This document shows positions 389 to 27,076 of a stretch of 32,000 bases of DNA, one piece after another. The DNA lies in assembly GCA_048886185.1 (NCBI GenBank), contig JBHLKY010000016.1:1-32000 (forward strand), written 5' to 3'. The notes beneath the pieces were generated by a model. That model worked only from the letters and a program-made list of their open reading frames with translations. It ran no database searches and had not been told where the DNA came from. The position numbers and the translations under genes are program-made. How positions within the stretch are numbered: the stretch's first letter is position 1; every line of letters starts with the position of its first letter. This DNA comes from Candidatus Hermodarchaeota archaeon (GTDB lineage Archaea > Asgardarchaeota > Heimdallarchaeia > Hodarchaeales > Hodarchaeaceae).

Positions 389-1780
389 TTAAAGAATTCC
401 AAATGTTGAGAGGGCAATTAGATAAATTGTACCTATTAGAAGATGAAGAAAACCTAGCAGAGCACCTACCTTAAGAAATTGTACAAATGTGATTTCTGCC
501 CCTTCCCGATTGGACAGATTAATTGCGAGGATATTTGCAGGACTTCCAATTGGAAGAATATATCCTCCCAGGTTCACAGCGATAACTAATGTCCACCATT
601 GGATTGAACCGATGATACCAGCATTTTGAAGATCAAAGAAAACAGGAGCTAACGCAGCTGAGATTGGAATATTGTCAACAACGGCTGAGATTGCGCCTAT
701 TCCGAATGAGATGAAGGGGAGTGAGAAAATAAGAGGAAGCTCAAGAAATGGAGTTAGAAGTTCTCCTAGAAGTTCCAATAAATAGAGAATTTCAATTGAA
801 CCGACTAAGATGAAAAGTCCGATAATAAAATAGACTGAGATCCATTCTACATCTCTGAAAATTTCTTTTGGGTGCATTCCTGAGAAAAGGAGTAAACCTG
901 CAGCTATCAGCAGTGCAATTTCAGCAGCTTTTAAGTTCAGAACACTGCCAAAGATAAATCCCATTACCAATACAAACAACCCCACTATTACCACATAAAA
1001 TGTTCTTTTATCTTCAACGAGGACATTTGGGTCTAGTAGGAAAATCTCTTTGACCAAGGTGGTAGGGGGATCCGAAAATGTCTTTTTTGCCGTAAGATAG
1101 TAAATAGGTAGAGCTGTAGCAAATAACATAAGACTTAGAGGCCCCATTACTATTAAAAAGTCGAGAAATGTTGCACCGCTCTTATCTGCTAAAACTATGT
1201 TCGGAATACTCCCTACCAAGGATGGAATTGATGCAAAATTAGCAGTAATTGCTTCTACAATGAGAGTAGGCCGAAAGTCAAATTCAAGAATCTTATATAT
1301 TTCAACTGTTAGTGGTGCGATTATTAACATAGTAGTGATGACATCAAATACGAAACTGATGATAAAGGTGAGCATGGATAATGAGAGTAGTAATGTTTTC
1401 GGATTTCCTTTTGTGAATCGGACAATTATGATGCTAATATACTGGAAAAGGCCTGAACGGCTTGAGATTATCGTGATAATCATCATTGCGGTGATAAAAA
1501 GGAGTGTGTTCCATTCAACTCTTGAGACAATAGTATGGAATGTTGTTACTTCACCTTGGTATTCCCACTCTGTAACAATCAATAAAATTGAAATAATACT
1601 GGCTCCCAGAAGAGCTGAGATTGGTCTATGTAATTTCTCTGTAGAAATCAGAATATAGGTTCCTACGAAGATTATCAGACCAATCAATTGCACAGGATGT
1701 AAAGCGATAACCAAACCACCCGAAATAGTGTTTTCATTTAATCTCCTATATAGAATGGACGACTTAAGCGATTCCAGCAT
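389..1780 (-). CDS. ArsB/NhaD (ion transporter superfamily, SLC13/P-protein-like) permease
   Basis: About 11-12 hydrophobic segments; motifs VEWNTLLF, VGSIPNI, SAVVDNIP, LPIGSPAN typical of ArsB/NhaD permeases. Start moved from the ORF-track 1885 to ATG at 1780; the true start may be further downstream. Substrate unknown. Confidence 0.8.
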   Translation of the reverse strand: MLESLKSSILYRRLNENTISGGLVIALHPVQLIGLIIFVGTYILISTEKLHRPISALLGASIISILLIVTEWEYQGEVTTFHTIVSRVEWNTLLFITAMMIITIISSRSGLFQYISIIIVRFTKGNPKTLLLSLSMLTFIISFVFDVITTMLIIAPLTVEIYKILEFDFRPTLIVEAITANFASIPSLVGSIPNIVLADKSGATFLDFLIVMGPLSLMLFATALPIYYLTAKKTFSDPPTTLVKEIFLLDPNVLVEDKRTFYVVIVGLFVLVMGFIFGSVLNLKAAEIALLIAAGLLLFSGMHPKEIFRDVEWISVYFIIGLFILVGSIEILYLLELLGELLTPFLELPLIFSLPFISFGIGAISAVVDNIPISAALAPVFFDLQNAGIIGSIQWWTLVIAVNLGGYILPIGSPANILAINLSNREGAEITFVQFLKVGALLGFLHLLIGTIYLIALSTFGIL

Positions 1781-2035
1781 GAAGGCTTGTTGATACAAGC
1801 AAAGGATATTAACATTATAAAGACAATTATATGCTATATGAAAACTTTCAATAATTGATAAAGATATGACATTCCAATAAGTCAAAAGGAATGGAATTCC
1901 TCATATGAATCACGATAAACTTTTTTTTACATAACATTCATGTTTGACGTTAGCAATACATTATAGTTAAAGAATTGATTTAAATGATTAATTGTAATTA
2001 TCATTGAAAATCATTCTCATCAGAGTTGTTTTCAA

Positions 2036-3448
2036 ATGGAAGAAATTATTCATACTGAAATTGCCATCCTAGGGGGTGGCCCTGCAGGGTACGTGGCAGC
2101 TATTAGAGCATCTCAATTAAAAGCAAAAGGTATTGTATTGATTGAAAAAGGCCAGATTGGAGGCACTTGTCTTAATCGAGGGTGTATTCCTACAAAAGTG
2201 TTCGTTGAGTCTGCAAAACGATGTAAGGCTCTAAGAGAAATGTCTCGGTTTGGATTGCAGTCTGAGTATCTCGGGGTCGATTTTTCTAGTATTCAAAAGA
2301 GAAAAAACATGATTGTTCGACGTCTTGGGAAAGGGATCGATTATTTGTTAGAGAATGGTAATGTTCGTGTGCTAAATGGAGAAGGAAGATTCATTGATCC
2401 TCACACTATCTTTGTAACAGCAATAGATAAACAATACCGTGTTTCTGCTGAAAAGATAATAATAACAACTGGGAGTAAACCCTTTTTTGTTCCTATCCCT
2501 GGAATCGACGGTGCAAAAGTCCTAACAAGTGAAAAATTACTTGAATTACAACAAATTCCTGAGAGCTTGATCGTGATTGGTGGAGGCGCGATCGGTGGAG
2601 AGTTTGCATGTGTTTTTAGATGCTTTGAGGAGACAGATGTCACTATTGTTGAAATGCTTCCACGTTTAATCCCAATGGAAGACCCTGATCTCAGTGCGGA
2701 ACTTGAAGCTTCATTTAAAAGAACTGGAATCAAAGTTCATACCAGTTCTCGTGTCACCCGCATCTCAGATACCCCTGTTGGTAGAAAAAGAGTAACTTTT
2801 ATTGATGCTGAAAAAAACGAACGAAATATTGAGGCTGATTATATCTTGGTGTCAATCGGCCGAGCTCCAGAGATGAGTCGATTGAATCTTGATAAGATAG
2901 GAATTGAACATGATCGTGGAATTATTGTCAACACAAAGATGGAAACTAATATTCCTGGAATCTATGCTGCTGGTGATGTAGTTCAAGGAGTACCATCACC
3001 AATGTTGGCGTACACTGCATCTCATGAGGGAGAAGTAGCTGTCGAAAATGCGTTGGGTCATGAAACTGAAATGAGTTATCACGCTATTCCTACAACAATA
3101 TTTACCAATCCTGAGATTGCTTCTGTGGGATTGTCTGAGGAGAAAGCGAGAGAAAAGTATAGTGAGATCCTTATTGGGAAGTTTCCTTTTCAGGGAAATG
3201 GTAGAGCAGTTATTTCTGGCCAAAATCGTGGATTTGTAAAGGTAATTCTTGATGCTGAAAGTACTGAAATAGTAGGTGTACATATTATTGGTCCTAATGC
3301 GACCGAGTTAATCGCAGAAGGTGCCTTAGCAGTTGGTAACCATATGAAGGCAGAGGATATTATTAAAATCGAACACTCACATCCAGTATATTATGAAACG
3401 ATCAAAGAAGCAGTCCTTTGTGCTCTAGGCCGAGCTATTCATACATAA
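2036..3448 (+). CDS. lpdA: Dihydrolipoamide dehydrogenase (E3 / glycine cleavage L protein)
   Basis: FAD motif GGGPAG, redox disulfide GGTCLNRGCIP, NAD motif GGGAIGGE, YAAGD, C-terminal HPVYYE His-Glu pair; 470 aa. Confidence 0.93.
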   Translation: MEEIIHTEIAILGGGPAGYVAAIRASQLKAKGIVLIEKGQIGGTCLNRGCIPTKVFVESAKRCKALREMSRFGLQSEYLGVDFSSIQKRKNMIVRRLGKGIDYLLENGNVRVLNGEGRFIDPHTIFVTAIDKQYRVSAEKIIITTGSKPFFVPIPGIDGAKVLTSEKLLELQQIPESLIVIGGGAIGGEFACVFRCFEETDVTIVEMLPRLIPMEDPDLSAELEASFKRTGIKVHTSSRVTRISDTPVGRKRVTFIDAEKNERNIEADYILVSIGRAPEMSRLNLDKIGIEHDRGIIVNTKMETNIPGIYAAGDVVQGVPSPMLAYTASHEGEVAVENALGHETEMSYHAIPTTIFTNPEIASVGLSEEKAREKYSEILIGKFPFQGNGRAVISGQNRGFVKVILDAESTEIVGVHIIGPNATELIAEGALAVGNHMKAEDIIKIEHSHPVYYETIKEAVLCALGRAIHT

Positions 3449-3491
3449 TTGTTTTTTACTTTAGTGTCATGAGTGATGTTCTTCCCCCAAC

Positions 3492-5510
3492 TCACTTTTT
3501 TCTTTCAATTACCTTAGGAGTTCTCTTCATATTTGGATTTTCTAGCTCTATGATCATATCTCGTATTTCTGCAGCTTTTTCAAACTCAAGATTCTTCGCA
3601 GCTAGCTGCATTTCCTCTTTTAAGGCCTTAAGATACTCTGGAAGATCTTCTGCTGAGATTTTCTGGTGTTTGATATTCGTAAAGGATGTTTGTAACTCAA
3701 TGAGTGGAGATCTTACCTCTTTGATTATTGTTTGTGGGGATATCCCCATTTTTTCATTATAATCTAGTTGCTTACGACGACGTCTTTTGGTTTCAGCAAT
3801 CGCCATTTCCATGGATTCAGATATTTTGTCTGCATAGAAAACTACTCGCCCATTTACATTTCGAGCGGCACGACCAATGGTTTGTATAAGAGATTGTTCA
3901 TTTCTAAGAAATCCTTGTTTATCTGCATCTAGAATCGCAACCAAAGAAACTTCTGGTAAGTCGAGTCCCTCTCGTAAAAGATTGATTCCAACAAGAACAT
4001 CGAACTCCCCTAATCTTAATGATCGCAAAATATCAGTTCTTTCCAGCGTTTTTATCTCTGAATGCAAATAACGTGCTTTTATATCTATTTCATCAAGATA
4101 ATCTGCAAGATTTTCAGCCATTCGTTTGGTTAGGGTAGTTACTAGTGTACGTTCTTTTCGTTCTGTTGTTTGACGTATTTCGCTTATTAGATCATCAATC
4201 GGATTCTCAAGTTTTATCTTTACTTCAATCTCTGGATCAACTAGTCCTGTAGGGCGAATTATTTGCTCTATTACACCTTCTTTTGCACTTTTTTTCAGAG
4301 CATATGGGCCTGGTGTTGCACTCACAAAGATAGTCAGTCCCATTCGAGCTTCAAATTCTCTAAAAGTAAGAGGTCGATGATCAAAAGCAGAGGGTAATCG
4401 AAATCCATAATCTACCAGGTTCTTTTTTCGAGAAAAATCTCCTTCTCTCATCCCTCCAATTTGGGGGATTGTCATGTGAGACTCGTCAATGATGAGAAGA
4501 TAGTCTTTAGGAAAAAAATCCATCAATGTTGAAGGAGGTTCTCCTTCAGCTCGCATATCGAAGTATCGAGAATAATTTTCTATACCTGGGCAATAACCAA
4601 TCTCTTCTAAAAGTTCTAAATCATACAATGTACGTTGTTGTAGTCTGTGGGCTTCAATTATCTTATTTTGTTGTCTTAATTCTTTGAGTCGAAGTCTTAA
4701 TTCTTCTCGGATACTACTAAGTGCCGCTCTAAGTTCTTCTTTAGGCCTGACATAATGCTTTGCAGGGAAAACGATAACACGATTGAGTTCAACTAAAGTT
4801 TTACCCGAAATAGGGTGAATCTGGGAAATTCGATCTACCTCATCACCAAAAAGCTCAATTCTCACTGCAACCTTTTCTTCATAAGTTGGCCAGACATCAA
4901 TCGTGTCTCCCCGTATCCGGATTTTCCCTCGTAATAATGCTTGATCACGTTCATACTGAATATCAATTAGTCTAGAAAGAATCATCTTTTTAGATATACT
5001 CATACCTTTTTCTACAAATAGACTCATGCTCTTATACGTCTCAGGTGACCCAAGGCCATAAATGCAGCTGACACTTGCAATTACTATCACATCATCGCGT
5101 ACAAGAAGGCTTCTTGTTGTTGAAGCCCTCATCTTCTCTATCTCTTCATTAATATTAAAATCCTTTTCAATATAGCGATCTGTGGTTGGAAGGTATGCTT
5201 CAGGCTGATAATAATCATAGTACGAGACGAAGTACTCTACAGCGTTATGAGGGAAATACTCTTTGAACTCCTGATACAATTGTGCAGCAAGGGTTTTGTT
5301 ATGAGAGATAACTAAGGTGGGTTTCTGGACTGTTTCAATGACATTCGCAATAGTAAAAGTTTTCCCGCTACCAGTGACTCCTAAAAGAGTTTGGTTCTTT
5401 GCATTCTTTTCCTTTATACCTTGCACAAGTTTTTCAATGGCTGATATTTGGTCGCCACGTGGCTCATAGGGAGATATTAGTTGAAATTCTGGCAGAATTA
5501 TTCTCTCCAA
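3492..5510 (-). CDS. uvrB: Excinuclease ABC subunit B
   Basis: GVTGSGKT Walker A, YYDYYQPEAY beta-hairpin, DESH, GINLLREGLDLPEV, QTIGRAARN, C-terminal UVR coil (AAKNLEFEKAAEIRD); TTG start. Confidence 0.97.
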   Translation of the reverse strand: MERIILPEFQLISPYEPRGDQISAIEKLVQGIKEKNAKNQTLLGVTGSGKTFTIANVIETVQKPTLVISHNKTLAAQLYQEFKEYFPHNAVEYFVSYYDYYQPEAYLPTTDRYIEKDFNINEEIEKMRASTTRSLLVRDDVIVIASVSCIYGLGSPETYKSMSLFVEKGMSISKKMILSRLIDIQYERDQALLRGKIRIRGDTIDVWPTYEEKVAVRIELFGDEVDRISQIHPISGKTLVELNRVIVFPAKHYVRPKEELRAALSSIREELRLRLKELRQQNKIIEAHRLQQRTLYDLELLEEIGYCPGIENYSRYFDMRAEGEPPSTLMDFFPKDYLLIIDESHMTIPQIGGMREGDFSRKKNLVDYGFRLPSAFDHRPLTFREFEARMGLTIFVSATPGPYALKKSAKEGVIEQIIRPTGLVDPEIEVKIKLENPIDDLISEIRQTTERKERTLVTTLTKRMAENLADYLDEIDIKARYLHSEIKTLERTDILRSLRLGEFDVLVGINLLREGLDLPEVSLVAILDADKQGFLRNEQSLIQTIGRAARNVNGRVVFYADKISESMEMAIAETKRRRRKQLDYNEKMGISPQTIIKEVRSPLIELQTSFTNIKHQKISAEDLPEYLKALKEEMQLAAKNLEFEKAAEIRDMIIELENPNMKRTPKVIERKK

Positions 5511-5702
5511 CTTGAAGCTGTTGGTTTTTCTTAACTTACTCCTGCTTAATTCAGATTCATAAATGACTGCTTTGGGGTAAATTCGGTTTCGGTTACTATT
5601 TGATTATATCAATTAGTTTTTAAATGACATTTCTTTTTGATTGTCACAATATAGAGACAGTAGAGTGACTCCGGCGATTAATGCCAAATACGAGGTTCCA
5701 GT

Positions 5703-6377
5703 GTGTTTGATCGTGATATACGTGTAACGGTATTAGGAAATACAGGCGTGGGGAAGACAACGTTAATTAACAGGATGACGGGGACAGATGTTCACAAAGT
5801 TGTAAGTAAAAAGACTTTAGAAATTAATATCGAGGAAAAGAAAATCAAATTGAAGAGTTCTGAAGCATACCCTTGGTATTCACCTGAAAAACATCGAAAT
5901 TATCGAATAATTGCAATAGATAACCCAGGTGACTTCAAGCTCCGTCGTAAATGGCGTGAGGCAATGCGAAAGTTTAAAACTGATGGTATGCTCTTCCTAC
6001 TTGATCCTGAACAATCTGTTGAGGTACAACGGGTAGCAATGGAGGACAGCTATAACTATTTTCTGGATTCACTTCATTTAAAGCCAGAAAAAGCTGATAA
6101 AAAAGCGAGAGAGACTAAATATATATTCCATTTCGTTGTTAATAAATGTGATCGATTTTTACAAGAGAAAAAAGATAAGAACACATTTAGAATGAGCTCT
6201 TCTGTTAAAGAAAAAGCAGTAGACTTTCTAAGTCGCTTTGGGCCTACAATGGATGAATTTAAGATTACATTTCCTCTCTCAAGATTTGGGATTTCTTATA
6301 TCTCCGCTCTTTATAGTCCCTACAAAGATTTAGACAAGTTGTTTGAAATCCTTAAAGTTTATATTTATCAGACATAA
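5703..6377 (+). CDS. Divergent small GTPase (Ras superfamily; Arf/SR-beta-like features)
   Basis: G1 GNTGVGKT, G3 DNPG, G4 NKCD, G5-like ISAL; helix LRRKW followed by GMLFLLD resembles Arf-type switch II/beta4. GAGGT ribosome site before GTG. Confidence 0.8.
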   Translation: MFDRDIRVTVLGNTGVGKTTLINRMTGTDVHKVVSKKTLEINIEEKKIKLKSSEAYPWYSPEKHRNYRIIAIDNPGDFKLRRKWREAMRKFKTDGMLFLLDPEQSVEVQRVAMEDSYNYFLDSLHLKPEKADKKARETKYIFHFVVNKCDRFLQEKKDKNTFRMSSSVKEKAVDFLSRFGPTMDEFKITFPLSRFGISYISALYSPYKDLDKLFEILKVYIYQT

Positions 6378-6389
6378 AAATAATTAAAT

Positions 6390-7214
6390 CTATAGTCTAA
6401 TTCTATTTAAATCAACTAATAATCCAATCTTTTCAGCAATTTGCTCTGAATCTATTTTCATAGGCTTTATCTTTAGTTCAATACTTTTCTTTTGTATATT
6501 GAGGTCAAGATATTCTTTCATTGAATTAAGTATGCGTATTTTTCGTAGTATTGGAGAAAATATGCTGAAAGATAAGTGTTGATGGTCTGAAACCTCTTTG
6601 GCTTGACTGAGGAGAATCGTTAACAGATCATCATGAAGTCTGAAGAATCTGGGAAAGTCACGAGAAAAAGTTCCAATAATTGAATTGGTTTCTTCAGTTC
6701 GTTTGTGTATGGAGGCAACAAATCTTCTTTTGAAGGGGATAAAGACATTTTCATCAAAAGTTGTAATTGTGGTGTTCATGGTGTCCTCAATAGACATTGA
6801 TCTTCTATAGAATTCTTCGTAGATGGAGTCAGGAAGCATTCTTAATTTATAGAAACCTGAATCAAATTGTTTCATTGTGAACGGGAGGATTTTTCCAAAA
6901 ATAAAATCTATTAGTAAATCCTCTTTTCTTTTTCCATCAATTGAAAAGCAAATTTCCGTCATCCCCTCACAAAGACGATGAAATAATTGAAATGCATCCA
7001 TCTTCACATAAGACGGTAATTCTGTCATCACCCCTGTTCCCTCCTGTGGATGCAGGACTAGGAAATTAGTGGTTAGGCTATTGACTTTATATTGAATTAG
7101 ATTTGAGGAGATTTCAAAATAGCCCCTTTTAGTGACGATTACCTGTTTCTTCCCTTCAATTTTAAAAGGGGGACACATTATGAAGAAGTGTGTTGTATTC
7201 GTCAAATAACTCAC
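6390..7214 (-). CDS. Hypothetical protein
   Basis: 274-codon ORF with no recognised motif. A GGAGG site precedes GTG/ATG at 7031/7028, so the real protein may be about 212 aa. Confidence 0.65.
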   Translation of the reverse strand: MSYLTNTTHFFIMCPPFKIEGKKQVIVTKRGYFEISSNLIQYKVNSLTTNFLVLHPQEGTGVMTELPSYVKMDAFQLFHRLCEGMTEICFSIDGKRKEDLLIDFIFGKILPFTMKQFDSGFYKLRMLPDSIYEEFYRRSMSIEDTMNTTITTFDENVFIPFKRRFVASIHKRTEETNSIIGTFSRDFPRFFRLHDDLLTILLSQAKEVSDHQHLSFSIFSPILRKIRILNSMKEYLDLNIQKKSIELKIKPMKIDSEQIAEKIGLLVDLNRIRL

Positions 7215-7336
7215 CTTGTATCAGAATTAAAGAACATAAGTTATATTTTTTTTAATTCTTTTTGCCAGTATCTGTAGTTTTAAGTTATATCTTTTTCAAA
7301 TGTTAATATAATTACTGGCCATTCGTCCTGACTAGG

Positions 7337-10300
7337 GTGAAAGCAATGACTAAAGACATTCATACAAAAGATCCCATCCCAAATATAACTAAACATCAAG
7401 CCACACAAATGGAAAACATGGAAGTTCTATATCCCAATACTGTCCAAATGACGAAAATTCGGGAAATACAACCTACTTTAGAAGATTCTAGACGACTTGC
7501 TAATTGTGTGAATGAATGGTCAGACGATGACAGCTGGGGTGGGGGATTTGGTACTACTGAATTCACTGGAGAGAGAATACTCAAAGAATGGTTTGCAACA
7601 AAGCTAACAAGGCGAATGGTTGTTGATGAGCAAGGAATTATCCAAGGATATTGTTCTATTGATGATCATTGGACTGATCAAGATGCAATGTATGCTGAGC
7701 TGTTAGGAGTTCGTCCATCTCAGCAGAAAAAGGGTTTCGGGAAAGCTTTGTTATTAAAAGCTGTTGAAACAGCAACTCAATATGGTAAACGACGTTTAGA
7801 TCTACATACATGGGCTGGAAACCTTCGTGCGGTTCCTGTTTATAAAAAAACAGGTTTTATGTGGCGTCCTAAAACTTCTGTACTGATGGAAAATTTTATT
7901 CCTGCAATCCTGAACACAGCTTTTTTCAGACCATTTTTCAGTCAAAATGAATGGTACCAGTCACGTGAACTTACCGTAACCCAAAAACCAGATAAATATG
8001 AAACTAAAGGTATAAAATCCTATTTTTATCGTTTTATACAAGATGATCAAAATTCCTTAACTGTGTATGTAGATCGTCACGTTAAAGAGATCTCAGGATT
8101 CTCTTATGTTGTTAATGGGGAAGAACTTTTTGTACAGCTAGTCCCCAATCTACATGAAGTATTCTTTGGAATTGATTCGACTAGAGCTGAACTAAGAATT
8201 AAGAACCTTTCTCAAAGGCCTATTATAATTAAAGGTAGCTTTACTTTTTTCAAAGGTATTAATACGGTTTCCATTGAATCAATACATGAAGTTGTTAAAG
8301 CTAAATCTGAAAAACAGATCTCTATTGATGTTAAACTAAACCCAAGGGTTGAAACTTATATTCCAGATCAAAAACCTTGGAAACGAACCGATTGTCGTCT
8401 TTATGGGAACCTCGAAATAGACAGCAAAGAAGTTCAATTAGCAGTAGGATGGGTTCCCAAACAATCTTTGCAAGTAATAATGAGTAACCCCTCTGCTTAC
8501 TTCGGAAGACATAAAAAACAGATAGTTATTCCTGTGGGATTTCGTAACATTATGGATCGTTCATTTGATGGACGGGCCGAAATCACTGGAGAAGGGTTAC
8601 CTATTCCTCATGAAGTTAGAATTGACTCTTTAAAACCTGGTGATGCTATTGAAACTCGAGTAAAGATTCCAAGACCAAAAGAATCGACAGTTACAGCATG
8701 GAGATGGAATATCAAATTATATCAACAGAAATCTGATGGAGAATCAGCTCTTCCTTCAATAATTCGGCATATTAGTTGTTACACTAAAGTGGGTGCTGTT
8801 GCTTATATTAATCCTCATAAAGCAGCAGTAATCGAAAATGAACAGATTCGATTTGAATTTAGCCTAAATGAGACAAATGAACTACATACTATAATATCGA
8901 AGGATGTGGGGGAATTTAGATTTATGACTTTTGGGATAAACATTGGTAAACCGTTTCCAGCCGAATCTTCTGAGTTTTGGAGGCTTGATCGGCCATATAA
9001 AATCATACATCGTGACTCCGGGATTTCTTTTAAGCAAGAGATGCTAAGCGAAGTCGAAAAACCAGGATTACATGTTACAAGGTGGATCCATGTTGACGCT
9101 GGGAAACCATTTATCTCATGTAATTACGAGATGACAAATACTTCTAATCTCACAATAAAAAATATCGCTATTCGTCATTGGAGTTCTTGGAGAACTCCAA
9201 GAATTTTGATAGGAAAATATACACTACCACTTAAGTCTGGCTGGCTTGTTTCAGATGATCCTGAATTCAATGATAATTTCGATTTTCCTCAAAATGCTGA
9301 TGAGTATGCTGAATCATGGTTAACAAAAGAGAATACGCTTGGTTTTGGATGTGGACTTATTTGGGATTCCTCTGAGGTTGAATCAATTCATGGAAATCCG
9401 TTTAATGGGCCAATAATAGATACTAGAACCTATAAGCTACAGCCAGGAGAATCAATCACCTTGGGAAACTTTACATGGGTTTTTGGAAGGTCGATCGTTA
9501 GCTTAACTCGTAACATCTGGTTGAATGAGTTTAATGATAACAAAACTTCCCCTATTGAAGAAACCACAATCGAATATTGTAATTTTCCTCTTGAAATCCG
9601 TTTTGGGCAAGGCCTAACAATTCCTGAGGTGACAAAGAATCCATTGCCAAGTCTAAATTGGATAGATTTGGATTCCACTACTGTTCCATTAGAAATCTTT
9701 TATTACATTCACCGTGAAACGCCAATAGAAGCCCAAATTGATCTCGAAAGTACTTTATGGGATTCTCCACTTCAATGGAAGACAAAGCTTGAAGCTAGAA
9801 ATAAACCATTCCTAAAAGAAATCTTACTAGATAAGCATTCAGATTCCCAAATTATTACTTTCAATGGGAAAATCCATCTCCCTTATACTTCTCGTCCTTT
9901 TTCTGGGGCAGTTATTCCTTTTAAGAGTTCAGGAAAAGTAACACTTGAAAGAATCGGTGGAAGTTGGCTTTTCTCAAACAATTTGTTGTCTTTTCAAACG
10001 AGTGCGACCCATGGTGCAAGTTTGTACTCAGGCAAAATCTTGAACAGAGAAGAGTTGTTTTTCTCACGTTTTCCTAACAGGGAATCTTTTGTGTGGTTCA
10101 AACGATTTATTGGCGGATTTCATCCTTTTATCAAGCCTTTATATGATTGGGATTGGTTAGAATTTCTTGATAATGTTTGGATTGGCCCTACTCTTGTTAA
10201 AAAAGATGATTGGTTTTGTTTGACTTATCAACTGAACTCTCCAGTCAATGATTTCCGTTTGAAGGACATTGCTTGTAAAATTACTTACTATACTCGGTTT

Positions 10301-21038: not shown

Positions 21039-21277
21039 AACAAGTACAACTCCTAGTCTTTTTTGGTTAACTGATTAAAAAATTCTATTTTACTAGGCAA
21101 TTCCCTCTAATTCGTGAACATTTTTAGTTATCTTGCATAACAATGGTTAAGAATTGTGAAAAGAAGTTATTTGGAAAGTCCTAAATAAACATTAAAACAA
21201 AATTAATTTAATGGTTCTAGAACTATCTGATCGTTGAAAGAAAATGAATTCTTAAGAAGTTAATGAGGTTCTTTTTG

Positions 21278-21820
21278 TTGCAGAATGAGTGGGTCTTGAA
21301 AATCTGTTCTGCTGGATCCTATCAAGTCGGTAAAACCAGCCTGATCCGCCGATATGCAGAAGGAAAATTCATTTATGATTATTTACCAACAATTGGTGTG
21401 GACATCACAACAAAAAGAGTAACTATTGATAACCAAAATGTTAAGCTTGTCCTTGTCGACACTGCGGGGGAAGAATATTTTGGGCGCATTCGCAAGACAT
21501 ATTTTGAAGGTGCGTTCAGTTGTATCATTGTTTTTGATATCACTCGTCACGAGACATTTGAGGAGCTAGATCGTTGGATTTCCGATTTTAGAAGTGTTGC
21601 TGGAGAAGATGCTGCTATCACAATAGTAGGAAATAAGAATGATTTAGAAGATCTTCGTAATGTGACATATCAACAAGGAAAGAAGTTTGCAGATCAATAC
21701 AAAGTGCCATTTTACGAATGTTCAGCTAAACTGGGGGGAGATGTAATCCCAAAAATTTACGAAAATCTAATTCGGAAATATCTCAGAACATTACAGGAGA
21801 ACGAGGCATTGGGTGATTAA
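21278..21820 (+). CDS. Rab-like small GTPase, paralog 1 (switch II DTAGEE)
   Basis: GSYQVGKT, PTIGVD, DTAGEE, YFEGA, VFDIT, GNKND, ECSAK. TTG 21278 (after GAGGT) aligns exactly with the Met of paralog 2; ORF track starts at 21263. Confidence 0.92.
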   Translation: MQNEWVLKICSAGSYQVGKTSLIRRYAEGKFIYDYLPTIGVDITTKRVTIDNQNVKLVLVDTAGEEYFGRIRKTYFEGAFSCIIVFDITRHETFEELDRWISDFRSVAGEDAAITIVGNKNDLEDLRNVTYQQGKKFADQYKVPFYECSAKLGGDVIPKIYENLIRKYLRTLQENEALGD

Positions 21821-22022: not shown

Positions 22023-22553
22023 ATGAGTGATGATTTAATTTTAAAGATCTGTTCTGCTGGGTCTTATGGAGTGGGTAAAACAAGCCTTATCCGACGTTAT
22101 GCTGAAAATAAGTTTTCTTCAAGCTATACACCCACCATTGGTGTAGACATCACAACAAAGCGAGTGACAGTAAATAACCATAAAATCAAACTTCTTTTAA
22201 TTGATACAGCGGGACAGGAGTATTTTGGCAAGATTCGAAAATACTATTTTGAGGGAGCTTTTAGCTGCATAGTTGTTTACGATATTACAAGGTATGATTC
22301 ATTCTCTGATCTCGACCGATGGATTACTGATTTTAAAAGCGTAGTTGGAGAAAAAGCACTGATAGCAATTATAGGAAATAAAAGTGATTTAGAAGAATTA
22401 CGGACAGTACAAAGTGAGGAAGGACGAAACTATGCAGAAAAGCACGGATTTCCTTTCTACGAGTGTTCTGCAAAACTTGGAGGAGAAGTTATTCCCAAAT
22501 TATACACTGATCTCGTTCATCAATATCTTTTTTCCTTAGGAGAAGTAGATTGA
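22023..22553 (+). CDS. Rab-like small GTPase, paralog 2 (switch II DTAGQE)
   Basis: GSYGVGKT, PTIGVD, DTAGQE, YFEGA, VYDIT, GNKSD, ECSAK; colinear with paralog 1. Confidence 0.93.
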   Translation: MSDDLILKICSAGSYGVGKTSLIRRYAENKFSSSYTPTIGVDITTKRVTVNNHKIKLLLIDTAGQEYFGKIRKYYFEGAFSCIVVYDITRYDSFSDLDRWITDFKSVVGEKALIAIIGNKSDLEELRTVQSEEGRNYAEKHGFPFYECSAKLGGEVIPKLYTDLVHQYLFSLGEVD

Positions 22554-22609: not shown

Positions 22610-23881
22610 TCATTCTTCCTCGGGTAGAACGAAATCAGGTACAGTCTTAGGGAGGGTAGATTCAGTGTTGTCAAATTTTTTAAGATCGTTTATATTTACG
22701 TTTAATTCCACTTTAGACTCTTCTGATTCAGTGGGTTCATCGTCTACGGTTTCCACATCACCTTTTTCAGGTTCCTGAGGAGATTCATCTTCTGCAGGTT
22801 CCACTCCAACCTCAAATTCCTCAGGAGACTCAAATTCTTCAGATTCAGTCTTAATCTCCTCTACTGATTCTTTGTCTACTGTTATTTCTTCTGCTGGTTT
22901 CTTTTCCGCTTCATTTTCTCCCTTGTCTTCGGCCTCTTCTATTTCCTCCTCTTCCTCCTCTTCTTCCACATCACCCATTAAGCGCTTCAGACGCCACAGC
23001 ATTTGGAGCTTCAGGCGTCGACTTTCATCATCAAAACCGAAATCATTAGCAAATTTCGGTGTTGTCGTATAAGATGTTGATCGTGCGCGGTCTTCCCCTA
23101 TAACGTACCCCCTATTTTCCAAATCTCGGCATATCTCAGTTATTTTTACTGGGCCGATACCTCGGATTATTTTCTTTACCAATGCTAAGGAGATAGGTTG
23201 TCGATACGCAATTTCTGTAATAACACGTCGTTCTTCTTCTGTCATGAATTTTTCAGGAAAAAACTCGTGGAAGAACTCGTGATAGATTGGATTGAGCTGG
23301 AGCACCCATCGATCTCTTGAAATTTCTTCAATAACAATTGGAGAAGTCCGCTTTCTTTGGCGTGAGAGTTTTCTTATGGTCCGTTTTACAAGAGGTGATT
23401 CTTCTTGTAGACTCTCAATGAGTTCATCTGCGTGTATTGGTCTTCCAATAGAAAACAAAGCACCCTCGATTCGTTCCTCTAGGCTGATGGGCACGAGCTT
23501 TATTGGAGCTATAATGGCTGTATCAAGTTTGGTTTGAACAGGAAGTTGAGCTTTTAAGAGTTCAGGTGATATGAAGCTGTTTATTGACACCTCAGATTCA
23601 ACTATTGCCCCTGCGAAGGGAAGAAAATCTAGAATGGGTTCTAGTATCGCGGGTTCCTCGGGAATTGGTTCTGAGATTACTTTGGGAAGTGTGGCGAATT
23701 GTTCTTCAAATGGAGTTTCTGTGGTAGTATAGACTTCTATTGATTGCATCTGCGATTCTTCTTGAGTTTCCTGTGATATTTCCGCAGCTGGAGTAATTAT
23801 ATCACTTTTAGTGTCTACTTCCTCCTCTATAGTTTTTTCCTTCTTCTTATCTTTCTTTCTTCGACGGAAAAGACGAAACAT
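22610..23881 (-). CDS. scpB: ScpB/kite-family protein with long N-terminal and acidic C-terminal extensions
   Basis: Core aa ~134-302: IEGALFSIGRPI, EIAYRQPIS..IRG, YTTTPKFANDFG, the tandem wHTH pattern of ScpB. Confidence 0.85.
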   Translation of the reverse strand: MFRLFRRRKKDKKKEKTIEEEVDTKSDIITPAAEISQETQEESQMQSIEVYTTTETPFEEQFATLPKVISEPIPEEPAILEPILDFLPFAGAIVESEVSINSFISPELLKAQLPVQTKLDTAIIAPIKLVPISLEERIEGALFSIGRPIHADELIESLQEESPLVKRTIRKLSRQRKRTSPIVIEEISRDRWVLQLNPIYHEFFHEFFPEKFMTEEERRVITEIAYRQPISLALVKKIIRGIGPVKITEICRDLENRGYVIGEDRARSTSYTTTPKFANDFGFDDESRRLKLQMLWRLKRLMGDVEEEEEEEEIEEAEDKGENEAEKKPAEEITVDKESVEEIKTESEEFESPEEFEVGVEPAEDESPQEPEKGDVETVDDEPTESEESKVELNVNINDLKKFDNTESTLPKTVPDFVLPEEE

Positions 23882-23897
23882 GGGTTATCACAGATTT

Positions 23898-24461
23898 TTA
23901 ATCTTCATACTGAAGTTGACGGAGAGCGTAGTCTTTTAGTCCTTTTCGAATAGCAATTTTGGTTCTCTCTGATTCAACTGGTAATTTGAACAAATGGAGA
24001 AAATCCTCTGTTACATTAATCACATTTCTTTTCCCCTTAGGAGTAATAGTTATCAGATTCATTGCTTTTAATTCTTCTAAGTCATCCTTAGCCCTTGTTC
24101 CAAGAATTTTCTGGAGTTTACTCGGTGTAACCTGTTCCTCTAGAACGTACTCCTTGAAAGCAACGAGACTCAGTACCTTTAATAGGTGTCTAGGAACCTC
24201 TGAACGTTTAATAAATGGCCAATGTAAATGAGCCGCTACCTCCTCTCTTAGTCTTAATTGAACGGTATGGTCATCCGTACGGAAAATAGTGTAAGCTGTT
24301 TTTTGATCAAGATGAACGTCAATAATTTTCTCAATAAGACGTTCTACTTCTCCTTCATCTTTCTGAATAAGTTCTGCTAGCTCGGTATAGCTCATTGGCC
24401 TATCAAATAGGTATAACGCTGCCTCTATAACATTTTTTTCTTTTAAAGCTTTAATCTCCAT
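23898..24461 (-). CDS. scpB: Second, compact and divergent ScpB/kite-family protein
   Basis: VIEAALYLFDRPMSYTELAELI, LKVLSLVAFKE..VT, VTEDFLHLFKL match the ScpB pattern; 187 aa; 16 nt upstream of the other scpB. Confidence 0.8.
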   Translation of the reverse strand: MEIKALKEKNVIEAALYLFDRPMSYTELAELIQKDEGEVERLIEKIIDVHLDQKTAYTIFRTDDHTVQLRLREEVAAHLHWPFIKRSEVPRHLLKVLSLVAFKEYVLEEQVTPSKLQKILGTRAKDDLEELKAMNLITITPKGKRNVINVTEDFLHLFKLPVESERTKIAIRKGLKDYALRQLQYED

Positions 24462-24585
24462 TGCTAGATCCGAGTCCGAGGAAAAGAATAATCCATTTTT
24501 AAAGTCGAGGAGCTATGGCTTTATATTCATTTTTCAATATTATCCATTCTTCATAAATCATTTCTGTTTGATCATTTTGTTGAAT

Positions 24586-24673: not shown

Positions 24674-27076
24674 ATGGCTAGTCTAGGATTAGAATCTCTT
24701 GATTTAGATCTTCAAGAGTCGAAAGTATATATCACCCTCCTCGCTTTGGGTCCGCTTTCACTTGGTGAAATTATAAAATATGCTGAATTCTCATCAGCTG
24801 ACGTATTCAAAGCCCTTGAGGGGTTACAGAGTAAGGGTTATATCCACCAAATTCCAGGAATAACTGACCGATATAATGCGATGCTTCCTTTCAATGATTT
24901 AAAAGCATCGACTAATACAACTATTTCACAGATGGAGCAGCTTGCTTCTCAACTTGATGATCATATTGCACAGAGGTTGGAGATCATTTTGGGGAAGTTA
25001 CGCGAAGAATCTCAGAAAATGAGTGCAGGAATTGAAACAGCACGAACTGCAATTGGTCAGGTAGAAATGAAAGGCGAGAGTGAAATTGAAGAAAGAATCG
25101 CAAGATATGCTCTTGAAGTAGAGCAGGGGACTGATCAGACAAAAAGTGACATTATTAAAACATTTGAAATGAAACAAAGCGATCATGAGGCATTAACATC
25201 AAATCTAAAGTCAAATTCACAACAAAAAATAAATGAAATAGGTGCAAAATTTCAGGAAATTAATCAACAATTCCTCGACAAGTATCAGGCGGGAATCGTT
25301 GAATTAGAAACTTCTGAGTCTCAACGAAATCAGAATTTAACCAACACAGCTGAAACTTTAATTTCACAATCCCAAGAATCCTTTTCCCAAGGCATTCAGA
25401 ATGTTAATCTATCAATGACTACCACAGGACAGACGTTGTTCCAATCAATTGATGAAAGAAACGAAAAATTGAGTACACACATAACTAACGTTTCAAATGA
25501 GATGGCCAATACTGTTGCTGAAGTAAGTAGTCAAGGTCAAGAAAAAATTATTGCATCTCTTGGTTTATGTAATGAGAGATTTCAACAACAGCTTGAAGCA
25601 AGTAAACAGAATGCCATGGCAGCTTTTACTTCCACACGAGATGAGCTCAAATCAAAAGCTGTAGAGAGAACAGAAAACTTGCAGCAGCAGTTAAGTGAAA
25701 CTTTAGTAACTACTCAGAACCAGATTATTGAGATGTTACAACAAGCACAGGAAACACTGACAACAAAGGTGAAAGAAGCCAGGAACCTGTTAGAAACCTC
25801 CCTTGGAGAGTTCACAGAGGCAGTTAAAATACAAACAGATAGTGATATGCAACAAGTAATTGTCAATACTGAATCAACCTTTGGTGGGCTCACTCAAGAT
25901 ACTCAATCCACATATGAGCAAACTCATAACCAAGTTGAAGCTGCTTTCAACGAAATGACGTCTAATGCAAAGGGAAAATCAGAGGAGATCAAAGGAGCCG
26001 CTATAGTCGAATTAAATTCAGTTGTTGAAACCTTAAAAGCTGAAATCACATCACAATTAAACCAGTTCAAGCAAATATTATCCCCTCAAGCACAATTTTT
26101 GAAAGATGAACTTACTAAATTTCAAACTGAACTTACAACTTCACGAACTCAAGCAGTAGAGACATTCAAAACTATGATGGCAGATTTCAAATCATCTGTC
26201 AGTGTAAAACACCAAGAAGTCGAAAACCTAGCTACTCAAGAGACTAACGCTTTATTAGAGAATATAAGTCAATTTATAGAATCCCTAAATGAGCAAATAA
26301 AGGAATATGACAGGAAATTCAATACTACACTAACCGAATCGGCTGTAAAAGGGTCAGAGAAACTCATTGTTCATACACGAGAGCTCCAAGAAAAAATGGT
26401 TTCATTAGTGAATGAAATGAGTAAAAACGCCACCGATCAACTCACTGCTACTAGTGAGATGATTTCTACAGGAATTCAGGCGGAAATCACTACATTGGAG
26501 GCAGAACTAAAAGATTATTCCACTAAATTTTATGAGGTGACACAGCGAAATGAGGATGTATTCAAAAACTACTTATTTTCGTTGGAAAAGCTATCTTCTC
26601 TAGTAACTGATACAAAGTATCCTGAGGTTCAAACAGCTCCGATTGTTTCACGGGAGGCTGTATTAAACTATTTGCAAAACATGTTCTCGAGGATGAAAGG
26701 AGGTATGACTTTACTCATTCCTCAAGCAAATGATATTCCGCTTGAACAGATTCTCGAAACAAAAAATCATCAAAGAATCAATTTAGTATCAGTCATTGAT
26801 CCGAACACACACACTGATCTATTGAAAAAACTATTCTCAAAACCAAATGTCCGGATTCGAAAGGTCGATATTGCCAAGTTTGAGGATGTCGAGAAATACA
26901 TTGCCGCGGATCGAGATGGTGAAGAGGTTCTGATTGGGATTACGGAGGATCAAGGAGAAACAGTCGCTATCGCCAGTTTTTCCGACTCATTTGTCACTTT
27001 AATGGGAAAAATCGTTCTTGGGGATTACTTCCTCGCCCGCTCCATAGAAATTAATCGTGCAGAAGTTGGAATGTAA
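24674..27076 (+). CDS. TrmB-family wHTH protein with ~570-aa helical/coiled-coil insert and C-terminal TrmB effector-like (PLD-fold-like) domain
   Basis: aa 1-72 ESKVYITLLALGPLSLGEI..VFKALEGLQSKGYI..RY is TrmB wHTH-like; aa 73-646 helical with one Pro; aa ~652-800 alpha/beta domain (SREAVLNYLQNM..MTLLIP..IAADRDGEEVLIG). Confidence 0.75.
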   Translation: MASLGLESLDLDLQESKVYITLLALGPLSLGEIIKYAEFSSADVFKALEGLQSKGYIHQIPGITDRYNAMLPFNDLKASTNTTISQMEQLASQLDDHIAQRLEIILGKLREESQKMSAGIETARTAIGQVEMKGESEIEERIARYALEVEQGTDQTKSDIIKTFEMKQSDHEALTSNLKSNSQQKINEIGAKFQEINQQFLDKYQAGIVELETSESQRNQNLTNTAETLISQSQESFSQGIQNVNLSMTTTGQTLFQSIDERNEKLSTHITNVSNEMANTVAEVSSQGQEKIIASLGLCNERFQQQLEASKQNAMAAFTSTRDELKSKAVERTENLQQQLSETLVTTQNQIIEMLQQAQETLTTKVKEARNLLETSLGEFTEAVKIQTDSDMQQVIVNTESTFGGLTQDTQSTYEQTHNQVEAAFNEMTSNAKGKSEEIKGAAIVELNSVVETLKAEITSQLNQFKQILSPQAQFLKDELTKFQTELTTSRTQAVETFKTMMADFKSSVSVKHQEVENLATQETNALLENISQFIESLNEQIKEYDRKFNTTLTESAVKGSEKLIVHTRELQEKMVSLVNEMSKNATDQLTATSEMISTGIQAEITTLEAELKDYSTKFYEVTQRNEDVFKNYLFSLEKLSSLVTDTKYPEVQTAPIVSREAVLNYLQNMFSRMKGGMTLLIPQANDIPLEQILETKNHQRINLVSVIDPNTHTDLLKKLFSKPNVRIRKVDIAKFEDVEKYIAADRDGEEVLIGITEDQGETVAIASFSDSFVTLMGKIVLGDYFLARSIEINRAEVGM

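What the first reader, a model, noticed from the sequence alone, without database searches (positions are those of the whole stretch)
22610..24461. Two divergent scpB paralogs in one operon: a heterodimeric kite as in eukaryotic Nse1-Nse3
Seen: adjacent co-directional genes 16 nt apart, both with the tandem-wHTH ScpB pattern but highly diverged (only one keeps AY.QP and TT..F..FG; the other has an inserted EYVLEEQ loop). Established: bacterial ScpB and MukE are homodimers, whereas Smc5/6 uses the Nse1-Nse3 heterodimer. Inference: an asymmetric kite pair on one kleisin. Archaeal kite duplications may already be noted in SMC-evolution studies; I cannot verify this here.
Basis: partly seen in the sequence, partly recalled or inferred. 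Interest (0 to 1): 0.75.

Follow-up and report, generated by a model that had tools for sequence, protein, structure and literature searches.

The report
Paired ScpB subunits in Hodarchaeales SMC locus
An Asgard archaeon of the order Hodarchaeales carries two adjacent, very different ScpB ("kite") genes beside its only SMC chromosome-folding genes, where other prokaryotes have one; they probably pair with each other, like Nse1-Nse3 of eukaryotic Smc5/6, but the pair arose separately.

Summary
Window 23898-24461 (187 aa, "short") and 22610-23881 (423 aa, "long") are co-directional genes 16 nt apart. Both match Pfam SMC_ScpB above its cut-off, yet they share only 14/35 identities by BLASTP. The genome is a Hodarchaeum-like Heimdallarchaeon. 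It has one SMC, one divergent kleisin and only these two kites.

The pair is found in 19 of 21 genomes of the genus and in both genomes searched from a second family of the order. No genome had one copy alone. Outside the genus the genes form one smc-kleisin-short-long operon. In this genus an opposite-strand TrmB/coiled-coil gene splits it, so "one operon" is not literally true here.

Both kites are under strong purifying selection. A complex prediction supports a short-long dimer through the N-terminal winged helices (ipSAE 0.76, best control 0.00). That interface copies solved ScpB homodimers, so homodimers are not excluded and kleisin binding was not tested.

Both paralogs are ScpB-type and the SMC is condensin/cohesin-type, so this parallels Nse1-Nse3 and is not its ancestor. 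A 2025 preprint table already lists two adjacent "ScpB-like kites" for Heimdall LC_3 without comment. This scan reached the same reading on two other Hodarchaeales genomes.

The parts
27974..31549 (-). SMC ATPase (1191 aa), canonical condensin/cohesin-like type; the only SMC found in the genome
   Evidence: PF02463 E 9e-41. Best solved relatives are Pyrococcus Smc (E 1.8e-101), then SMC4/2/3/1; Smc5 reaches only 3.7e-11. The other SMC_N hits in the genome are two UvrA and one Rad50.
27081..27944 (-). Divergent kleisin (ScpA-like, 287 aa), 30 nt downstream of smc
   Evidence: No Pfam ScpA match. 87 of the 100 nearest named ESM-Atlas clusters carry PF02616; top score 0.94 with 206 shared features. 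Weak profile match to the P. furiosus ScpA C-terminal winged helix, 4i99_C, E 0.085. Conserved next to smc in all relatives.
23898..24461 (-). Short kite (187 aa): derived ScpB paralog, two winged-helix domains plus a C-terminal helix
   Evidence: PF04079 E 1.2e-16. AF2 model pLDDT 81.6. Best fold match is P. yayanosii ScpB 6juv, E 3.8e-11. dN/dS 0.03-0.10.
22610..23881 (-). Long kite (423 aa): the more conservative ScpB paralog, with added disordered tails
   Evidence: PF04079 E 1.6e-17. Core 134-301 folds as two winged helices plus a helix; residues 1-125 and 302-423 have low confidence. Best fold match is 6juv, E 8.6e-12.
22964..23506 (-). ScpB core of the long kite (aa 126-306), used in the complex prediction
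   Evidence: Core dN is 0.14-0.22 against relatives whose synonymous sites are saturated.
23834..23881 (-). Conserved basic N-terminal motif of the long kite (MFRLFRRRKK...)
   Evidence: Conserved in both families of the order (alignment A2). Function unknown.
22613..22963 (-). Acidic, disordered C-terminal tail of the long kite (aa 307-423)
   Evidence: Low pLDDT. Length and sequence vary among orthologs. dN/dS 0.37-0.48.
24519..24537 (-). BRE/TATA-like element about 58 nt upstream of the short-kite ATG; a likely separate promoter for the kite pair in this genus (inferred)
   Evidence: GAAAAAT(G/C)AATATAAA recurs at the same distance in 8 of 13 same-genus loci.
23885..23891 (-). Shine-Dalgarno-like GTGATAA in the 16-nt spacer before the long-kite ATG
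   Evidence: GAGGA, GATGA or GTGAT lies 5-10 nt before the ATG in most orthologs, and the spacer has no promoter-like element. In L081-L084 the genes overlap.

Best explanation
The two genes encode the two halves of a heterodimeric kite for the organism's single Smc-kleisin complex. A ScpB gene duplicated at or before the base of Hodarchaeales. The downstream copy (long) stayed close to canonical Asgard ScpB and gained a basic N-terminal motif and an acidic tail. The upstream copy (short) diverged fast. The two proteins pair through their N-terminal winged-helix domains, in the same way a ScpB homodimer does. Each is then inferred to occupy one of the two non-equivalent kite positions on the kleisin, making the complex asymmetric while the SMC remains a homodimer. 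Shown here: family membership, fold, conservation, co-occurrence, gene order and purifying selection. Predicted here: the short-long interface. Inferred only: kleisin binding, 1:1:1 stoichiometry and a functional division of labour.
For: Both are ScpB by Pfam, by PDB profile search (6juv, E 1e-19 and 1e-20) and by fold.

The genome (96% complete) has only these two kites, one SMC and one kleisin.

Both copies occur in 19 of 21 same-genus genomes and in 2 of 2 genomes of a second family. The two genomes without a match are 71% and 80% complete. No genome has one copy alone.

The order is always kleisin-short-long. In L031, L032, L039 and L082-L085 this is one co-directional smc-kleisin-short-long cluster, with overlapping or near-abutting reading frames.

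The short and long clades show the same internal branching.

Purifying selection: short dN/dS 0.03-0.10; long core dN 0.14-0.22 with synonymous sites saturated.

Canonical single-copy Asgard ScpBs score higher against each paralog's profile (58-111 bits) than the paralogs score against each other (24-34 bits). This fits divergence in two directions from one ancestor.

Complex prediction for short plus long(126-306): score 0.76, best of 3 controls 0.00. That mark was reached by 58 of 80 solved complexes and 2 of 110 mismatched pairs; these counts hold only roughly because my own alignments were used. The runs agree in at least 60% of contacts, and the partner's pLDDT is at least 69. The interface is nWHD to nWHD: short 6-19, 53-57, 71-80 against long 129-144, 175-182, 196-211.
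Against: The predicted interface copies the solved ScpB homodimer interface, so the pass may reflect likeness or memory. It does not show that the heterodimer is preferred over short2 or long2.

The interface residues are similar hydrophobics in both paralogs, so sequence does not exclude homodimers.

Euryarchaeal ScpA and ScpB did not bind in vitro, even when their genes are neighbours (PMC7055376). Kite-kleisin contact in archaea therefore cannot be assumed. Genetics in T. kodakarensis does place Smc, ScpA and ScpB in one pathway (PMC11840125).

In this genus the pair is transcriptionally separated from smc-kleisin.

The tree does not place short and long as sisters, though their union is not rejected (AU p 0.255).
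Confidence: 0.6

Rival explanations
1. Two alternative homodimeric kites. Short2 and long2 each bind the same kleisin, giving two isoforms of the SMC complex with different properties, for example with or without the long kite's charged tails.
For: Solved ScpB proteins, including archaeal 6juv, are homodimers through the nWHD. Both paralogs keep the hydrophobic helix-1 and strand residues of that interface.
Against: Strict 1:1 co-occurrence, fixed gene order and overlapping or SD-coupled reading frames are what obligate partners usually show, not alternatives. The heteromeric model scores 0.76 against a best control of 0.00 (same counts and caveats as above).
Confidence: 0.15
2. One paralog has left the SMC complex. 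Most likely this would be the fast-evolving short copy, or the long copy with its new tails, now acting as a separate winged-helix DNA-binding or regulatory protein that merely stays in the operon.
For: The short kite has lost the AY.QP and TT..F...FG motifs and sits on a long stem in the tree. The long kite gained conserved non-ScpB motifs.
Against: Both are kept next to the kleisin across the order, and neither is ever found alone. Both keep the full tandem winged-helix ScpB fold. The predicted mutual interface is confident.
Confidence: 0.15
3. Neither kite binds the kleisin. As proposed for euryarchaea, Smc-ScpA would be a binary complex, and the ScpB-like dimer would work beside it through DNA or the SMC.
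For: No ScpA-ScpB interaction was seen in vitro for four euryarchaeal pairs, one of them with neighbouring genes (PMC7055376). The kleisin here is too divergent for Pfam ScpA.
Against: The kleisin and short-kite genes overlap by 4 nt in L081-L084. T. kodakarensis genetics puts all three proteins in one pathway, and its authors report unpublished evidence for a ternary complex.
Confidence: 0.1

Closest known systems
Smc-ScpAB of bacteria and archaea (ScpB homodimer on ScpA; PDB 3W6J, 4I98; P. yayanosii ScpB 6JUV)
   Same: Same protein families, same tandem winged-helix fold, same nWHD-nWHD dimer geometry in the model, and the same smc-kleisin-kite gene order.
   Different: There are two old, very different ScpB genes instead of one. 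The long one carries about 125 aa of N-terminal and about 120 aa of acidic C-terminal disordered extensions. The kleisin falls outside Pfam ScpA.
Nse1-Nse3 kite heterodimer on Nse4 in eukaryotic Smc5/6 (PDB 7DG2, 5WY5)
   Same: Two different kite paralogs serving one kleisin (inferred here).
   Different: They are not orthologous. Both proteins here are ScpB-type: Nse1/Nse3 are fold matches at only E about 1e-3 to 4e-3 and give no sequence match. The SMC is condensin/cohesin-like and single. There is no RING and no MAGE domain.
Condensin/cohesin-related cluster of Heimdallarchaeota LC_3 in bioRxiv 10.1101/2024.01.07.573240, Supplementary Table 3
   Same: That table lists an SMC, a kleisin and two adjacent 'ScpB-like kite' genes (MDVS01000047.1_2, _3 and _4;_5), all in one orientation, in a Hodarchaeales genome. 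This is the same four-gene layout as L031, L032 and L082.
   Different: In the parts of the preprint I read, each archaeal complex is described as having one kite, and Asgard kite paralogs are assigned to different complexes. A heterodimer is not proposed. I could not fetch the LC_3 genes to confirm that they are orthologs.
MukE (MukBEF) and JetB (Wadjet) kites
   Same: Tandem winged-helix kite fold; both appear as weaker fold matches.
   Different: They are homodimers, with different SMC and kleisin families and much lower similarity.

Membership tests
ScpB (PF04079), kite of Smc-ScpAB | Significant match to the family profile above its curated cut-off | tested here: met
   Long 64 bits and short 61.2 bits against a 27.4-bit cut-off. 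Profiles hit ScpB 6juv at E 1e-19 and 1e-20.
ScpB (PF04079), kite of Smc-ScpAB | Two tandem winged-helix domains | tested here: met
   AF2 models. Foldseek best matches are ScpB structures.
ScpB (PF04079), kite of Smc-ScpAB | Gene linked to smc and the kleisin gene | tested here: met
   Within 3-7 kb here. Contiguous smc-kleisin-short-long in relatives.
ScpB (PF04079), kite of Smc-ScpAB | Dimerises through the N-terminal winged helix | tested here: inconclusive
   The short-long model scores 0.76 against a best control of 0.00, with an nWHD-nWHD interface. This is a prediction only, and it may reflect likeness to solved homodimers.
ScpB (PF04079), kite of Smc-ScpAB | Homodimeric state (one gene product at both positions) | not tested
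ScpB (PF04079), kite of Smc-ScpAB | Binds the central region of the kleisin | not tested
Archaeal precedents are contradictory.
Nse1/Nse3 (Smc5/6 kites) | Closer in sequence or fold to Nse1/Nse3/MAGE than to ScpB | tested here: not met
   7dg2 and 5hvq match at E 1e-3 to 4e-3, against ScpB at 1e-11. PDB profile searches give no Nse hit.
Nse1/Nse3 (Smc5/6 kites) | Partnered with an Smc5/6-type SMC | tested here: not met
   The SMC matches Pyrococcus Smc at 1.8e-101 and SMC1-4 at 1e-50 to 1e-41, but Smc5 at only 3.7e-11.
Nse1/Nse3 (Smc5/6 kites) | RING domain on one kite | tested here: not met
   ScpB is the only significant Pfam family on either protein.
Kleisin ScpA (PF02616) | Match to the family profile | tested here: not met
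   No hit at E up to 1, in the genome or in 16 orthologs.
Kleisin ScpA (PF02616) | Gene directly downstream of smc, with a C-terminal winged helix like ScpA | tested here: inconclusive
   Position met. 4i99_C (P. furiosus ScpA C-terminal winged helix) matches at only E 0.085. 87 of the 100 nearest named Atlas clusters carry PF02616.

The most novel reading that the evidence does not exclude
Hodarchaeales, among the closest known archaeal relatives of eukaryotes, would have turned the symmetric ScpB2 kite of a condensin/cohesin-type SMC complex into an obligate two-gene heterodimer while the SMC stayed a homodimer. That would be an independent, prokaryotic instance of the symmetric-to-asymmetric step that eukaryotic SMC complexes show in Nse1/Nse3 and in the A/B hawks. 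The long subunit's basic and acidic tails would add a new regulatory or DNA/chromatin-contact function.
Probability: 0.5. Interest if true: 0.7.

Novelty: new variant of a known kind. Interest (0 to 1): 0.55.

Why it matters
All eukaryotic SMC complexes are asymmetric: they have heterodimeric SMCs, and either Nse1/Nse3 or two kinds of hawk proteins. Prokaryotic complexes are taken to be symmetric, with homodimeric kites. A conserved pair of kite genes on the only SMC-kleisin system of Hodarchaeales would show that asymmetry can begin at the kite level in a prokaryote. It would do so in the lineage most often placed next to eukaryotes, and in the condensin/cohesin-type complex, not the Smc5/6-type one. 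It also gives a simple system for asking what each of the two non-equivalent kite positions on a kleisin does. Finally, it qualifies the published scenario in which each archaeal complex has a single kite.

Tried and rejected
- **Related loci with the short-kite alignment:** The long-kite alignment worked.
- **RNA evidence:** no RNA holder was listed for the stretch. Only sediment-metagenome DNA runs hold it, and these are probably the source.
- **Kleisin identity by Pfam, NCBIfam or PDB sequence search:** nothing significant.
- **Is one paralog Nse-like?** Rejected by fold and profile searches.
- **A second SMC complex in this genome?** The other SMC_N hits are two UvrA and Rad50-Mre11, and no third kite was found.
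- **Dating the duplication from the tree:** unresolved. The short clade sits on a long stem, the long clade lies in a polytomy of Asgard ScpBs, and the union of short and long is not rejected (AU p 0.255). No bacterial or eukaryotic outgroup was available.
- **Tandem pairs elsewhere in Asgard:** other genomes with two or three matches that I checked have dispersed copies (G230, G171, G107), or a full gene plus an adjacent cWHD fragment (G162). 112 matches of the phylum scan were not listed, so adjacency was not checked in every genome.
- **Literature on ScpB heterodimers or paralogs:** nothing relevant beyond the two papers cited.
- **Homodimer models and kleisin-kite models:** not run, because the cap is one complex job.

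Full report
**What is there**

On the minus strand the window holds smc (27974-31549, 1191 aa) and a 287-aa gene 30 nt downstream (27081-27944). An 800-aa gene follows on the plus strand (24674-27076). Then, again on the minus strand, come a 187-aa gene (23898-24461, "short") and, 16 nt later, a 423-aa gene (22610-23881, "long").

Both small genes match Pfam SMC_ScpB well above its cut-off: 61 and 64 bits against 27.4. They barely recognise each other. BLASTP gives 14/35 identities, E 7e-4. Their family profiles cross-hit at 24-34 bits.

Two details need correcting.
- **The motif.** The long protein keeps AYRQP and the TT..F...FG motif. The short one has AFKEYV and VTEDFLHLFKL at those places, plus about five extra residues just after. 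This is mainly a substituted motif with a small insertion next to it, not an inserted EYVLEEQ loop.
- **The operon.** In this window the pair is cut off from smc-kleisin by the opposite-strand gene.

**Whose genome**

Record titles of close relatives name Candidatus Hodarchaeota or Heimdallarchaeota. Ca. Hodarchaeum mangrovi is in the same genus group, and isolate S146_22 is in the second family. Ras-family GTPase genes sit next door.

The genome is 4.84 Mb and 96% complete. It has only these two PF04079 matches and no third kite by profiles of either paralog. It has one SMC hinge match. Its other SMC_N matches are two UvrA and a Rad50-Mre11 pair.

The 287-aa protein has no Pfam ScpA match. 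It always follows smc. Its orthologs' profile weakly matches the P. furiosus ScpA C-terminal winged helix (4i99_C, E 0.085). 87 of its 100 nearest named ESM-Atlas clusters carry PF02616. I treat it as a divergent kleisin.

The SMC is canonical: Pyrococcus Smc matches at E 1.8e-101, eukaryotic SMC1-4 at 1e-50 to 1e-41, and Smc5 at only 3.7e-11.

**Conservation**

- **Co-occurrence.** Both copies are present, adjacent and in the order short then long, in 19 of 21 genomes of the genus and in both genomes of a second family. The two genus genomes without a match are 71% and 80% complete. No genome has one copy alone.
- **Gene order.** In the second family (L031, L032), in a more distant type (L039, L082-L084) and in L085, the genes form one co-directional cluster, smc-kleisin-short-long, with overlapping or near-abutting frames. 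L081 has kleisin-short-long with a 4-nt overlap. The opposite-strand TrmB/coiled-coil gene sits between kleisin and kites only in this genus.
- **Promoter and ribosome-binding signals in this genus.** A BRE/TATA-like element recurs about 58 nt upstream of the short gene, and an SD-like motif precedes the long gene. This suggests a separate bicistronic transcript (inferred).
- **Distribution in Asgard.** Among 301 Asgard genomes, most have a single strong ScpB match (E about 1e-33). Two weak tandem matches were seen only in these two families. Other multi-copy genomes that I checked have dispersed copies.
- **Distribution in the global library.** In a library of 1.84 billion representative proteins, the short type has only 4 representatives at E up to 1e-30 and about 10 at up to 1e-20. 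Below that the list merges into ordinary ScpBs.

**Selection and history**

Against same-genus orthologs the short gene has dN/dS 0.03-0.10. The long core has dN 0.14-0.22 with saturated synonymous sites. The long gene's tails evolve faster, with dN/dS 0.13-0.48. Neither copy is decaying.

Canonical single-copy Asgard ScpBs score 58-111 bits against each paralog's profile, more than the paralogs score against each other. In a maximum-likelihood tree the short clade is monophyletic (100/98) on a long stem. The long clade (83/81) sits among canonical Asgard ScpBs. The two clades branch internally in the same order. Holding short and long together as one clade is not rejected (AU p 0.255).

The simplest reading is one duplication at or before the base of Hodarchaeales, followed by unequal divergence. 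The long copy is the conservative one: it keeps the QP, TT..F...FG and C-terminal LK.Q..W helix motifs. The origin is not proven, and no outgroup was available.

**Structure and pairing**

The short model (pLDDT 81.6) and the long core (residues 134-301) are tandem winged helices. Their best solved match is P. yayanosii ScpB, at E 3.8e-11 and 8.6e-12. Bacterial ScpBs come next. Nse1, Nse3/MAGE, MukE and JetB appear only near E 1e-3 to 1e-2. Residues 1-125 and 302-423 of the long protein are predicted to be disordered. They contain a conserved basic N-terminal motif and an acidic tail.

- **Score:** 0.76, best of 3 controls 0.00.
- **Calibration:** the mark was reached by 58 of 80 solved complexes and 2 of 110 mismatched pairs. 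These counts hold only roughly here, because my own alignments were used.
- **Consistency:** the runs agree in at least 60% of contacts, and the partner's pLDDT is at least 69.
- **Interface:** pseudo-symmetric. Helix 1 of each N-terminal winged helix packs on the first strand of the other.

This is the ScpB homodimer mode described for 6JUV. Because such homodimers are solved, the pass shows that the two paralogs can still make a ScpB-type dimer with each other. It does not show that they prefer it to homodimers.

**Caveats from the literature**

Four euryarchaeal ScpA-ScpB pairs did not bind in vitro, one of them encoded by neighbouring genes (PMC7055376). [quoted passage not shown] Kleisin binding here is therefore an inference from gene coupling.

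**What is already known**

The preprint 10.1101/2024.01.07.573240 describes ScpB-like and Nse1/3-like kites of Asgard and TACK archaea as belonging to separate complexes with one kite each. Its Supplementary Table 3 nevertheless lists, for Heimdallarchaeota LC_3 (Hodarchaeales), a condensin/cohesin-related cluster with two adjacent ScpB-like kite genes. For Ca. Hodarchaeum mangrovi it counts only one ScpB-like kite, although both genes lie on that genome's contig (L036/L051). I found no paper that proposes a ScpB heterodimer. Two earlier follow-up reports of this scan, on other Hodarchaeales genomes, reached the same reading.

**Verdict**

- **What it is.** This is a real, conserved feature that is limited to one lineage. 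My best explanation is a heterodimeric ScpB-type kite on a single canonical Smc-kleisin complex (confidence 0.6).
- **Relation to Nse1-Nse3.** It works like Nse1-Nse3 in having two different kites. It is not a member of that family and is not its ancestor.
- **Scores.** New variant of a known kind; interest 0.55.

Noticed in passing
window 24674-27076 (+): An 800-aa protein with an N-terminal TrmB helix-turn-helix (PF01978, E 5.5e-10; weak NCBIfam TrmBL2 match) and a long coiled coil. It lies between kleisin and kites on the opposite strand in every same-genus locus with enough flank, but not in other families. TrmBL2 is the roadblock that positions Smc-ScpAB in T. kodakarensis (PMC11840125), so a functional link to the SMC locus is worth testing.
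   Followed up: partly
window 21263-21820 (+) and 22023-22553 (+): Two tandem Ras-family small GTPase genes (PF00071, E about 1e-47), just downstream of the kite pair on the opposite strand. This is typical Asgard content.
   Followed up: no
window 22610-23881 (-), aa 1-125 and 307-423: The long kite has a conserved basic N-terminus (MFRLFRR...), semi-conserved ETPFEE.F and SFISPE motifs, and a variable acidic tail. The N-terminal motif is also present in the second family, but the L039/L082 type lacks the extension.
   Followed up: partly
L038 (G018:C70) 1627-8304: A same-genus MAG also carries an SMC (1472 aa), kleisin (375 aa) and single ScpB (374 aa) cluster on an 8.6-kb contig. Its kite groups with Lokiarchaeial-type kites in the tree. 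This is either bin contamination or a second SMC complex.
   Followed up: partly
L070 (G162:C11) 922-1281 and 2232-3056: Another Asgard family has a full-length ScpB with an adjacent 119-aa fragment that matches only the C-terminal winged helix. This is a different kind of local ScpB duplication.
   Followed up: no
L076-L078 (G230:C1), a closed 4.36-Mb genome: Three dispersed PF04079 matches (E 6e-34, 8e-19, 3e-6) in one Asgard genome. The kite paralogs here are not tandem, unlike in Hodarchaeales.
   Followed up: partly
window 24519-24537 (-): The BRE/TATA-like element GAAAAAT(G/C)AATATAAA is conserved at about -58 of the short-kite ATG in 8 of 13 genus loci. It lies in the divergent intergenic region shared with the TrmB/coiled-coil gene.
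   Followed up: partly
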